Positions 51,288 to 54,190 of a DNA stretch of 64,000 nt are shown piece by piece (within the stretch, counting starts at the first letter, position 1; every line of letters starts with the position of its first letter). The DNA is from Paraspadella gotoi (lineage: Eukaryota > Animalia > Chaetognatha). The stretch spans positions 3,336,192 to 3,400,191 of the forward strand of contig CM119267.1 in the NCBI GenBank assembly GCA_051294375.1. Reading direction: 5' to 3'. Below the pieces are notes generated by a model. It did not search any database, was not told the origin of the DNA, and saw nothing but the letters and a program-made list of their open reading frames with translations. The position numbers and the translations under genes were made by a program.

Positions 51288-51352
51288 CTGAAATACATCG
51301 GCCCAAATCATCATCCACCACAAGTTTAGGATGTGGGCGTCATACGATTTTG
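51288..51352 (-). promoter_or_regulatory. SECIS element of the SelU/PRXL2B gene
   Basis: Minus strand ATGAC-GCCCACATCCT-AAAC...ATGATTTGGGC-CGAT: AUGA/GA core, ~11-bp stem and apical AAA. Confidence 0.85.
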
Positions 51353-51525
51353 TCAAATTGAGTCATCGTCACTATCACAGCAATTCTGTATATCAAAAAA
51401 AAAAACATGAAATAGTGAAAATATCGATAACCACTAATACTACTACATCGTAGTAAAAAAATAACCCATAACCAAACAAAAAATGAATCAAATAACTGGG
51501 TCTCAGTTAATTTTCCATCATTTGA

Positions 51526-52558
51526 TTACGAATCGGGAATTGGAATATTTAAAGCCTTTAGAATGTCTTCGTTTGGCGCGTGGTCAGCGAAGGAGGATTG
51601 TTTGTAAACATACAGCAATTCCGATCCACCTGAAAACGTTGACAATCTTTAATGTTGCTTACATTATTAAAGTCTAAATTGCGCTAATAACAAAAGAATA
51701 TTCCAGACGATTTTTCGATAAACCTTTAAATTCAGAGACCTGACGCAACAGTTAACTGACCTTTCCCCACGACGATGGTTCCGCCAGTGAGCATGCCGTC
51801 GCCCTGCATGTTGCCGGAGATGCCGCGACTAGCGGATCGCTGATTGGCGTCGCGCGAGACTTTCTTGGCGAGTTCCGGAATCATGGAGAGGTAGCCGAAT
51901 CTCTTGAATTCCATCGTGTCGTAGCAAACCTTTTTGGTGTCGAGGTAGAGTTCGCCGGCGAAGTAGTCGCCTGCCACGAACTCTTCGACTCCGATTTCCT
52001 CGTGGCCGATGCCCACCAGACTAAAGGAATACAAAATGTATTTAATAACATATGAGCGACGGGGAGACGTGTGTGATGCCCGGGGTGTGAGGCATCTCCC
52101 GACAGCTAGCGCTCAGGGCTTTGGACCTGCAGTGACCACCATGTCACTGGCATGTTTATGCCGACACCATCACACTTTAACCAGCATGACCGTGAGGGGA
52201 TTGAACCCAGAACTCACGGTTGGTGAACTATTACTTAGCTGTTCAAGCCAATGGGTCGAGCTGAGTTTCACCAAGTTATACGGGAGGCGAATTTAGGATT
52301 CGCCACAATATCATTTAATAAGAAGTGTTTTGAAATTATATATTCTTAAAATTGTGCTGACCCCACTTGATGCTCATCGAGAAGCGGTTTGATGTCTGAG
52401 AGCTCCTTGGCCCCGAGGCGACAGTACTGTCATCCGAAGCGACGAAGAAAAGTGATGACGCAGGGCCGATTCGCCCAGAGAGACTCCATCGCCACTTCCT
52501 CTTTCGTGGCAAAGTTTAAGAGAAGGTTGCGCGCGAGTTTTGGCAACAACTCCATCAT
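51526..52558 (-). CDS. PRXL2B: Selenoprotein U family / PRXL2B-like (prostamide-PGF synthase) with Sec at UGA 52430-52432
   Basis: LW...CVITFLRRFG-U-QYCR (UxxC in place of CxxC), LVGIG.E..G.EEF, GELYLD, G...GG..VV, SFADH. A SECIS lies downstream. Confidence 0.88.
52055..52275 (-). mobile_element. tRNA-derived SINE-like insert in intron 1 of the SelU gene
   Basis: Pol III B-box GGGTTCAATCCC enclosed by a CCGTGAG/CTCACGG stem, followed by a GC-balanced non-coding body that enlarges the intron. Confidence 0.5.
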
Positions 52559-52735
52559 GGAGTGGGGGGGAAGAGAGCTGAAAACAAGAAAATGGATGAA
52601 CGAAAACAAGGGCGATAACGAGAAATATTTGGCAAAGATAAAATCTCGTAGGTAAAATAAAAGTAAACAACAAAATAATCGAGACAATCTTTTGTGAACA
52701 ATAAACGGAAACTTTTTTTTAAATTCAATGATCTT

Positions 52736-52824
52736 AAAAGGAAATTTGAATTGTTACAACGATTTATTATTAATAAGTTGCAGACATGTTTCGACTCAGA
52801 GATTGCTCAAAATGTAATTACTTA

Positions 52825-52876
<52 letters not shown>

Positions 52877-52998
52877 CCTCTCTCTCACCTTCACAAATCT
52901 CATTTCTTTTCACCACTTATTCTATCTAGCCTAAATAAATCTGTCCTCTGAACTGACCACTAATCTCTCTCAATTCTTGTTGGAACTTTAACTCTCTG

Positions 52999-53051
<53 letters not shown>

Positions 53052-53185
53052 TCTTTTCTTTTAACTCACAAATTGTCCCATTATTCACAACTGTCAAAAG
53101 CGCTGATGAAGACTCGAAAATCTCTGAGTCGAAAATGTCTGCACTTATTAATAATAAAATCGTTTGTAACAATTCAAATTTCTTG
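52736..53185. mobile_element. MITE-like element with ~65-bp imperfect terminal inverted repeats and internal (CT)n tracts
   Basis: gaaatttgaattgttacaacgattt..gcagacatgtttcgactcagagatt (from 52741) is inverted at aatctctgagtcgaaaatgtctgc..aaatcgtttgtaacaattcaaatttc (to 53182). Possible TA flanks. Confidence 0.75.
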
Positions 53186-53344
53186 TAAAATCTCTATACA
53201 ACAAAAAAGAAAGATATACTTTGGTCATACATGGATTTAAATTCAATGCAAAATACACGAAACGAAAATGGTTTTGAAAAATAAAAAAAAAGGATTTTTC
53301 CGAACGAAAACTCGCAAGAAAAGCCAAATCATTTTCGAGAAAAA

Positions 53345-53410
53345 AAAATATAGATCAGGGCTACGAATGTCTTTTATCGACTCTCTCCGCAGTCCGTCAT
53401 GGAATGATTT
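53345..53410 (-). promoter_or_regulatory. SECIS element of SELENOH (type II-like, atypical apical bulge)
   Basis: Minus strand ATGAC-GGACTGCGGA-GAGA-GTC-GATAAAA-GAC-A-TTCGTAGCCC-TGAT. Confidence 0.78.
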
Positions 53411-53447
53411 TGACTTTTGATTCGAGATTGTGTCGTCGACGTCACCC

Positions 53448-54190
53448 TTATCCGCGTTGCTTCTTCACGAGATCGATAACGAGCTCGTGTTCCGGAAACT
53501 TGAGTTTACGCGGCGGTCCTTTCGCTAGTCCCGACCAGAGCACGACGGGTTCGTCGTCGTCGTCGTCGTGTCTTCGTCTTCATTACGATTTCGAAACTTC
53601 CTCGTTTCGGCTTTCCCTCGGGATTGAGTTCGACCTTGAGAGAGGGGGGCGACGGGGGGGGGGGTAATGAAAAGGGAGGAAACGAGTTTCTGCGGGCGAA
53701 CGTCGATTGACAACTTTTTCCGTTCGGTTCTCGTGGGGGAAAAAAAAAAAAGAGCAAGGGGAAAGGTTTTCGAATGGTAAGGCTACTAGATATATTTCCA
53801 AGCCCAATTGCTTTTAGTCTATTAAGAAATTGACAAATCAATTATACTATGATATTATAAAGTTCACAAAAAATAAGTTTCGTTGAGTGTGAGGAAAACC
53901 TGTTAAATTCATATTATTATTCTGTTATGTTATGTTTAATGGAAAGAAATTCGTACCTCCACACTGGAAAATTCCTCCCGCAAAGCGTCGCCGATAGCGA
54001 GGGCTTTGCGCTTGAAGACGGATCAGGAGGTGCAGTGATGGATGAGGAAGCGAAGGGTTCCGTCGGTGGCCGGCTTCGGCGACTGTCTTTCATCGCCATC
54101 TTCATCGGCGTCTGTTTTTGGCTTCTTTGAAGGAACATCCTCGACTTCTTTTGAGTTGTTTTTATGACGAGTCGTTGTTCGTTTGCTCAT
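53448..54190 (-). CDS. SELENOH: Selenoprotein H (Sec at UGA 54023-54025); apparent frameshift at ~53570
   Basis: Basic N-terminus, IHHCTS-U-SVFKRKA (CxxU), LNPEGKPKRGSFEI, LWSGLAKGPPRKLKFPE. Confidence 0.92.

What the first reader, a model, noticed from the sequence alone, without database searches (positions are those of the whole stretch)
51288..54190. Two unrelated selenoprotein genes (SELENOH and Sec-containing SelU/PRXL2B) side by side, each with its own SECIS
Seen: in-frame TGA falls exactly at the redox motifs CTS-U (54023) and RRFG-U-QYC (52430), the frames continue into conserved sequence, and each gene has a 3' SECIS. Known: animal selenoproteomes are small, and non-paralogous members are generally dispersed. 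Inference: this may be a co-transcribed selenium-redox module within the putative operon. Standard gene callers would truncate both genes.
Basis: partly seen in the sequence, partly recalled or inferred. Interest (0 to 1): 0.78.

Follow-up and report, generated by a model that had tools for sequence, protein, structure and literature searches.

The report
Two selenoprotein neighbours in an operon
Two unrelated genes that each carry an in-frame UGA at their redox site and a predicted selenocysteine-insertion hairpin sit side by side in a long run of same-strand housekeeping genes, likely an operon of an arrow worm, and their adjacency is probably chance, not a dedicated selenium module.

Summary
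The observation mostly holds. Both minus-strand genes have TGA at the redox motif (HCTS-U 54025-54023; RRFG-U-QYC 52432-52430), kept in spliced RNA contigs. Each 3' UTR has a SECIS-shaped hairpin. The second gene is SelU3/PRXL2B; Sec forms of it are already described in invertebrates.

Two corrections. The SELENOH frame does not run through in the window: 4 extra bases (53567-53570) shift exon 2. All 4 runs laid lack them, so this is likely an assembly error. The SELENOH hairpin has apical AGA, not AA, and Rfam finds neither hairpin.

A 66%-identical SelU3 transcript has the same TGA and a published chaetognath spliced-leader sequence, so the window is probably an arrow worm, where operons are common. 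The pair lies in about 50 kb of same-strand, unrelated genes. One RNA contig links SELENOH to its upstream transporter gene. The SELENOH-SelU3 link is unbridged and holds a polymorphic 519-nt insert.

Chance gives such a pair in about 2-6% of genomes, and synteny could not be tested. Verdict: two likely real selenoprotein genes, probably co-transcribed; a selenium module is unsupported.

The parts
53957..54190 (-). SELENOH-like gene, exon 1 (ATG 54190; charged, lysine-containing N-terminus; C-x-x-U at residues 53-56)
   Evidence: NCBIfam TIGR02174 SelT/SelW/SelH at E 0.012, below cutoff, on the in-frame half; covered by a spliced X8 contig
54023..54025 (-). In-frame TGA, predicted Sec56
   Evidence: no other letter listed in the 4 runs laid
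53635..53956 (-). SELENOH intron, 322 nt, GT-AG
   Evidence: skipped by the X8/X9 contig (table 5)
53448..53634 (-). SELENOH exon 2 to TAA; frameshifted in the window
53567..53570 (.). 4 extra bases beside a (GAC)n microsatellite; cause of the frameshift; likely assembly error
   Evidence: left out in 4 of 4 runs laid (table 4); open 138-aa frame without them
53352..53400 (-). Predicted type II SECIS of SELENOH, apical AGA instead of AA, mini-helix GUC/GAC
   Evidence: no other letter listed there in the 4 runs laid; no Rfam hit
52731..53249 (.). 519-nt insert with ~75-nt inverted arms and two (CT)n tracts, flanked by a 13-nt direct repeat; MITE-like; absent in run X4
   Evidence: a 765-nt X4 contig lies on 53236-53566 and 52283-52730, inferred to be one record from equal length, depth and strand
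52578..52597 (-). Candidate unpaired 3' splice acceptor 19 nt before the SelU3 ATG (possible trans-splice site)
   Evidence: score 8.6, within the cis-acceptor range, shuffle p 0.2 alone; X8 contig reads through it to 52662
52362..52558 (-). SelU3/PRXL2B exon 1 with U-x-x-C (TGA 52432-52430, predicted Sec43)
   Evidence: aligns with the C-x-x-C of PDB 9us9 prostamide/PGF synthase, E 5.6e-10; same TGA in L001
52021..52361 (-). SelU3 intron 1 (341 nt), holding a ~250-nt high-copy repeat at 52059-52311
51761..52020 (-). SelU3 exon 2
   Evidence: Pfam AhpC-TSA_2 E 4e-15; PDB 9usa/9us9 E 4e-20
51526..51629 (-). SelU3 exon 3 to TAA (intron 2 is 51630-51760, 131 nt)
51295..51343 (-). Predicted SECIS of SelU3, canonical AUGA...AAA...GA
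   Evidence: inside a 137-nt X8 contig with no other letters; no Rfam hit
54191..54554 (-). 364-nt spacer between an SLC38A10-like transporter gene and SELENOH, crossed by one spliced contig
   Evidence: X8/X9 contig of 3741 nt on 53571-53632 and 53955-56000; Pfam Aa_trans

Best explanation
These are two ordinary, likely functional selenoprotein genes, a SELENOH-like gene and a Sec-form SelU3/PRXL2B, which probably became neighbours by chance inside a long operon-like array of unrelated housekeeping genes in what is likely a chaetognath genome. The array would be transcribed as a polycistronic pre-mRNA. It would be cis-spliced, cut and polyadenylated at each 3' end, and capped by spliced-leader trans-splicing, giving separate mRNAs. 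Each mRNA keeps its own SECIS, 296 and 614 nt after the UGA, which would recruit the standard SBP2/eEFSec machinery to read UGA as selenocysteine. SELENOH would act as a nuclear/nucleolar C-x-x-U oxidoreductase and SelU3 as a U-x-x-C reductase of the prostamide/PGF-synthase type. Shown: gene structures, TGA positions, splicing, hairpin shape, gene order. Inferred: taxon, trans-splicing at this locus, co-transcription across the SELENOH-SelU3 junction, Sec insertion, and chance origin.
For: TGA aligns to the first catalytic Cys of PDB 9us9, and a 66%-identical transcript has TGA at the same codon. Human SELENOH has Cys41, Ser43 and Sec44 in 122 aa (PMC10646972 passages); here C53, S55 and U56 in 138 aa. 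L001 carries a 22-nt exact match to the 3' end of chaetognath leader SL2.8, ending 23 nt before the SelU3 ATG (one search compared by eye with Table 3 of PMC2481426; located). The window's SelU3 is 66-73% identical to five JGI proteins and 48-53% to six others, including two Daphnia proteins. In Paraspadella gotoi about half of the genes are trans-spliced and 18% lie in operons (PMC12460157 passages). Only 3 of 47 plus-strand ORFs of >=110 aa have a Pfam hit, all tubulin; 22 of 40 picked minus-strand segments do. Stop-to-ATG gaps upstream are 231, 184, 264, 268 and 364 nt; SELENOH-SelU3 is 889, or 370 without the insert. Acceptor-like sites before 9 ATGs give combined p 0.0014. One spliced contig crosses the transporter-SELENOH spacer while the SELENOH intron has no cover in that run. 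Expected adjacent selenoprotein pairs by chance are 0.018-0.056 per genome for 20-35 such genes among 21,072.
Against: No contig bridges SELENOH and SelU3. A contig across two genes does not prove one transcript, and contigs cannot show 5' ends. No leader was seen on this organism's RNA: the loose-end tables shown list none at the candidate acceptors, but they were truncated. The taxon rests on one relative's contig, whose 111 nt upstream of the match do not resemble the leader's 5' part. Rfam misses both hairpins. The SELENOH hairpin lacks AA. My patterns find no canonical SECIS in the 3' part of L001. The SELENOH subfamily call rests on a sub-cutoff NCBIfam hit plus recalled likeness; protein searches with its pieces found nothing. 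The gap exceeds the 250-nt operon criterion of PMC12460157, though that is measured between gene models, not stop to ATG.
Confidence: 0.65

Rival explanations
1. One reading: a selected selenium-redox cassette, in which the two selenoprotein genes are kept adjacent and co-transcribed for joint regulation.
For: The adjacency is real and is only a 2-6% event per genome under random order. Both hairpins have the same length and register. The insert-free spacer is 370 nt, and in that allele only 54 nt would separate the two RNA-covered stretches.
Against: The neighbours are an ING PHD protein, a ribosomal L27a-like gene (recalled), CSTF2, an endonuclease, an amino-acid transporter, an FKBP and an AKAP7-like gene. 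The bridged junction is with the transporter. A polymorphic insert is tolerated between the two genes. A scan of many genomes is expected to meet such pairs by chance. No shared pathway is given in the papers read.
Confidence: 0.12
2. The genes are independent neighbours: SELENOH ends one transcription unit and SelU3 starts from its own promoter, in or near the insert-bearing spacer.
For: No bridging contig. The 889-nt gap is among the longest in the array. The X8 SelU3 contig starts at 52662 with no loose end. The SelU3 acceptor alone is not significant (p 0.2).
Against: The insert-free gap matches the other short spacers. A relative's SelU3 transcript bears a leader, although monocistronic genes are trans-spliced too. 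The repeat explains the contig break.
Confidence: 0.15
3. SELENOH is a decaying or weak copy: the frameshift is a true allele of the sequenced animal, and the AGA hairpin recodes UGA poorly or not at all.
For: The frameshift is in the window. The apical AA is missing, whereas vertebrate SECIS have AA or CC (PMC3316567 passages).
Against: 4 of 4 runs laid have the open frame. The extra bases sit at a microsatellite. Core and helix II are intact and unchanged in all four runs. The apical loop is a minor determinant of efficiency, and human SELENOH already has a weak SECIS (PMC2761289 passages).
Confidence: 0.08

Closest known systems
SelU3 / PRXL2B (prostamide/prostaglandin F synthase; PDB 9us9); Sec forms in non-deuterostome invertebrates (PMC3473315, section 8)
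   Same: RRFG-[U/C]-x-x-C motif and AhpC-TSA_2 domain; exons 1 and 2 both match 9us9
   Different: Sec in place of the first Cys of the vertebrate enzyme; substrate here unknown; no chaetognath example appeared in the listings
SELENOH (Rdx / SelT-SelW-SelH family)
   Same: C-x-S-U spacing, similar length after Sec, charged N-terminus, 3' SECIS
   Different: N-terminus is longer and more acidic; short poly-Asp insert; SECIS has apical AGA; the window copy is frameshifted
Chaetognath operons resolved by spliced-leader trans-splicing (PMC2481426; PMC12460157)
   Same: Same-strand clusters of housekeeping genes with short spacers; leader of SL2 form on a relative's SelU3
   Different: The same-strand run spans about 50 kb and may be several operons (longest reported: nine genes); leader addition at this locus is not shown
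Clusters of selenoprotein genes in invertebrates (deiodinase, SelP, GPx, MsrA, SelU3 tandem copies; PMC3473315 passages)
   Same: Neighbouring selenoprotein genes, each with a SECIS
   Different: Those clusters are paralogous duplicates; this pair is non-paralogous

Membership tests
SelU3/PRXL2B | Sequence match to prostamide/PGF synthase with the redox motif aligned | tested here: met
   relative P0012 E 5e-51; named hit 'prostamide/prostaglandin F synthase-like'
SelU3/PRXL2B | Closer to SelU3 than to SelU1 or SelU2 in a tree | not tested
   No SelU1/SelU2 reference sequences were in hand; one Daphnia hit carries a UniRef label of the PRXL2A type
SelU3/PRXL2B | Prostamide/PGH2 reductase activity | not testable with these tools
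   needs an assay
SELENOH | Rdx-family C-x-x-U motif near the N-terminus of the domain | tested here: met
   C53-T-S-U56; TIGR02174 E 0.012 on a 35-aa piece, below cutoff
SELENOH | SelH subfamily rather than SelT or SelW | tested here: inconclusive
   No homologues returned. The C-x-S-U spacing fits PMC10646972; the C-terminal likeness is recalled, from no call
SELENOH | Intact reading frame | tested here: met
   Met in 4 of 4 runs; not met in the window's own letters
Eukaryotic SECIS | RUGA/GA core with a 10-12 bp helix II, in the 3' UTR | tested here: met
   Both hairpins, 9 of 11 pairs; both inside X8 contigs
Eukaryotic SECIS | Unpaired AA 11-13 nt after the core (SelU3 hairpin) | tested here: met
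   AAA
Eukaryotic SECIS | Unpaired AA 11-13 nt after the core (SELENOH hairpin) | tested here: not met
   AGA; filed as SECIS-like, non-canonical
Eukaryotic SECIS | Match to an Rfam SECIS model | tested here: not met
Eukaryotic SECIS | Drives Sec insertion | not testable with these tools
   needs a reporter or 75Se labelling
Trans-spliced animal operon | Same-strand genes with short spacers | tested here: met
Trans-spliced animal operon | RNA spanning neighbouring genes | tested here: inconclusive
   One contig spans transporter-SELENOH; none spans SELENOH-SelU3
Trans-spliced animal operon | Spliced leader on downstream mRNAs | tested here: inconclusive
   Seen on relative L001 only; contigs cannot show it here
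Conserved selenium module | Adjacency conserved in relatives and co-regulated | not testable with these tools
   No animal genomes held; the P. gotoi supplementary spreadsheet was too large to read

The most novel reading that the evidence does not exclude
Chaetognaths keep SELENOH and Sec-SelU3 together as a conserved selenoprotein cassette in one polycistronic unit, the first animal selenoprotein operon, with SELENOH recoded by a non-canonical AGA-loop SECIS.
Probability: 0.12. Interest if true: 0.65.

Novelty: new member of a known kind. Interest (0 to 1): 0.3.

Why it matters
As it stands, it adds two likely selenoprotein genes from a phylum for which my searches listed no selenoproteome paper. 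It is also a practical warning: automatic annotation would cut both genes at UGA, and SELENOH again at an assembly frameshift. If the pair proved conserved and co-transcribed, it would be a natural test of whether animal operons group genes that share a limiting nutrient. If the AGA hairpin works, it widens the SECIS rules that gene finders use.

Tried and rejected
- No whole genome is held, so tRNA-Sec, SBP2, eEFSec, other selenoproteins and leader genes could not be searched. ARAGORN found no tRNA in the window, and the window holds no leader copy (best 16 of 22 letters).
- The run search listed no holder on record as RNA. X8 is treated as RNA because it skips three introns.
- X8 has almost no cover on 50637-51268 or 52663-52716. 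Holes in contigs prove nothing, so I did not use them as operon borders.
- A micro-intron as the cure of the SELENOH frameshift: rejected by inspection, since no GT-AG piece of fitting length exists there.
- Programmed frameshifting: rejected, because the runs lack the extra bases.
- A covariance model from the two hairpins was dropped because MAFFT did not align them in register.
- Homologue searches with SELENOH pieces were empty (only chance hits). The protein atlas gave no answer.
- A CWC22 search for taxonomy was uninformative.
- The metagenome scan returned 1 relative from 194 pattern matches, a transcript without neighbours.
- Paper searches (listings only) showed no report of a SELENOH-SelU pair or of a chaetognath selenoproteome.
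- The three readable supplements of PMC12460157 had no hit for the gene names; its spreadsheet, which may hold the operon lists, could not be read.
- Earlier findings of the scan had nothing on this locus.

Full report
Gene models. Both genes are on the minus strand. Gene 1 starts at 54190, has TGA at 54025-54023 in HCTS-U (codon 56), a 322-nt intron, and a stop at 53450-53448. Gene 2 starts at 52558, has TGA at 52432-52430 in RRFG-U-QYC (codon 43), introns of 341 and 131 nt, and 186 codons to a stop at 51528-51526. Run X8, labelled RNA by guess, has contigs that skip exactly these three GT-AG introns and show no other letter at either TGA.

In the window, exon 2 of gene 1 changes frame at a (GAC)n microsatellite: the C-terminal part (LWSGLAKGPPRKLKFPE) is in another frame. 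4 of 4 runs laid (X3, X4, X8, X9) lack 4 nt at 53567, which gives an open 138-aa frame. I laid 6 of the 11 listed runs in all.

Identity. Exons 1 and 2 of gene 2 match prostamide/PGF synthase (PDB 9us9; E 5.6e-10 and 4e-20), with U on the first Cys of C-x-x-C, and Pfam AhpC-TSA_2. It is SelU3/PRXL2B; no tree against SelU1 or SelU2 was built. Sec-form SelU3 is already reported: 8 SelU3 proteins in 7 invertebrate species, only 3 of them Cys, all three in deuterostomes (PMC3473315, section 8 read). A metagenome transcript, L001, 66% identical, has TGA at the same codon. P0001 and P0007 show W at that place, probably a gene caller reading TGA as Trp (inference). Gene 1 gives only a sub-cutoff hit to the SelT/SelW/SelH family (E 0.012) and no homologues from its pieces. 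Its C-x-S-U spacing and length fit human SELENOH (PMC10646972 passages); the C-terminal likeness is recalled.

SECIS. Both candidates are 49 nt in one register: U.U, G.A, A.G core, 9 of 11 helix-II pairs, then AAA (SelU3) or AGA (SELENOH). They lie 182 and 47 nt after the stops and 614 and 296 nt after the UGA in the mRNA. A strict pattern finds 4 hits in both strands of the window against 1.5 in shuffles, i.e. 0.0035 per 300 nt; two of the four are these. A looser pattern gave 14 (AA) or 23 (AA/GA/AG) hits. The patterns are mine and post hoc. Against: Rfam finds neither, folding z-scores are weak, AGA departs from the AA or CC of vertebrates (PMC3316567 passages), and L001 shows no canonical SECIS. 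The apical loop is a minor determinant of efficiency and human SELENOH has a weak SECIS (PMC2761289 passages). The AGA hairpin is unchanged in all four runs.

Organism. L001 positions 112-133 equal the last 22 nt of chaetognath leader SL2.8 and end 23 nt before the ATG (against Table 3 of PMC2481426, passages). The bases upstream do not fit the leader's 5' part, so that contig end may be chimeric. The window's SelU3 is 66-73% identical to the five JGI proteins and 48-53% to the six others. The window is therefore probably a chaetognath (inference). In P. gotoi 10,197 of 21,072 genes are trans-spliced, 18% lie in operons, and the longest operon has nine genes (PMC12460157 passages).

Context. 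From 64 kb down to about 14 kb, every gene I identified is on the minus strand. These include ING/PHD, a ribosomal L27a-like gene (recalled; no Pfam hit), CSTF2, an endonuclease, an SLC38A10-like transporter, the two selenoprotein genes, an acidic protein, FKBP, AKAP7-like, mitochondrial ribosomal L28-family, FANCF, two BTB-zinc-finger genes, CWC22-like and ERGIC genes. 22 of 40 picked minus-strand segments have Pfam hits; 3 of all 47 plus-strand ORFs of 110 aa or more do, all tubulin. Stop-to-ATG gaps are 231, 184, 264, 268, 364, 889, 1238, 438 and 933 nt. Acceptor-like sites before the nine ATGs are enriched jointly (p 0.0014) but not for SelU3 alone (p 0.2), and they could also be 5' UTR introns.

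Co-transcription. One spliced X8 contig of 3741 nt runs from SELENOH exon 2 through the 364-nt spacer into the transporter gene, while the intron has no cover in that run. This fits a polycistronic or overlapping transcript but does not prove one. Between SELENOH and SelU3 lies a 519-nt insert with inverted arms, (CT)n tracts and a 13-nt flanking direct repeat. A 765-nt X4 contig, matched between the two calls by length, depth and strand, joins the two sides without it, so the insert is polymorphic and the empty spacer is 370 nt. X8 contigs reach 53238 from SELENOH and 52662 from SelU3; these points are 54 nt apart in the empty allele, but nothing bridges them.

Is the adjacency special? With 20-35 selenoprotein genes (assumed) among 21,072, random order gives 0.018-0.056 adjacent pairs per genome. 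That is unusual for one genome and expected somewhere in a large scan. The neighbours have nothing evident to do with selenium. Published invertebrate selenoprotein clusters are paralogous (PMC3473315 passages). Searches (listings only) showed no such non-paralogous pair. Synteny could not be tested: no animal genome is held, and the P. gotoi spreadsheet was unreadable; it may bear on this.

Mechanism and verdict. Most likely a polycistronic pre-mRNA is resolved by 3' cleavage and leader trans-splicing into separate mRNAs, each recoding its UGA through its own SECIS (established pathway; inferred here). Confidence 0.65. A selected module gets 0.12, independent units 0.15, a defective SELENOH 0.08. 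These are new members of known kinds; interest 0.3. Other papers seen as passages only: PMC7986045, PMC7896298, PMC8501958, PMC13134290.

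Noticed in passing
window 52059-52311 (SelU3 intron 1), minus strand: A ~250-nt repeat family: 1188 X4 contigs were laid on the stretch, with loose ends piling at both borders of the repeat. It has a tRNA-like B-box (by eye) followed by a weak Rfam twister-P1 match at 52091-52162 (21.5 bits, gathering 67.2, E 0.53). Possibly a SINE carrying a degenerate twister ribozyme; twister variants are tied to a retrotransposon in Schistosoma (PMC8501958 passages). It is the only copy in the window.
   Followed up: partly
window 52731-53249: MITE-like insert with ~75-nt inverted arms (91% alike), two (CT)n tracts and a 13-nt flanking direct repeat; present or absent among individuals.
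   Followed up: partly
window 14000-64000: [quoted passage not shown]
   Followed up: partly
window 54557-54555: The transporter gene ends in TGA and shares an RNA contig with the SELENOH gene downstream; on unresolved RNA the SELENOH SECIS could in principle recode it (12-codon extension). Speculative.
   Followed up: no
window 62040-62622 and 12354-13800: The ribosomal L27a-like gene and the beta-tubulin look divergent by eye, which fits the retained duplicate genes described for chaetognaths.
   Followed up: no
window 48524-50287: A long single exon for an acidic, internally repetitive protein with no Pfam hit; it appears to splice to a C-terminal hydrophobic segment ending near 47957.
   Followed up: no
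L001 112-133 and 787-1722: A chaetognath-type leader sits inside the contig rather than at its end, and the long 3' part has no canonical SECIS by my patterns, although the gene has the Sec-type TGA.
   Followed up: partly
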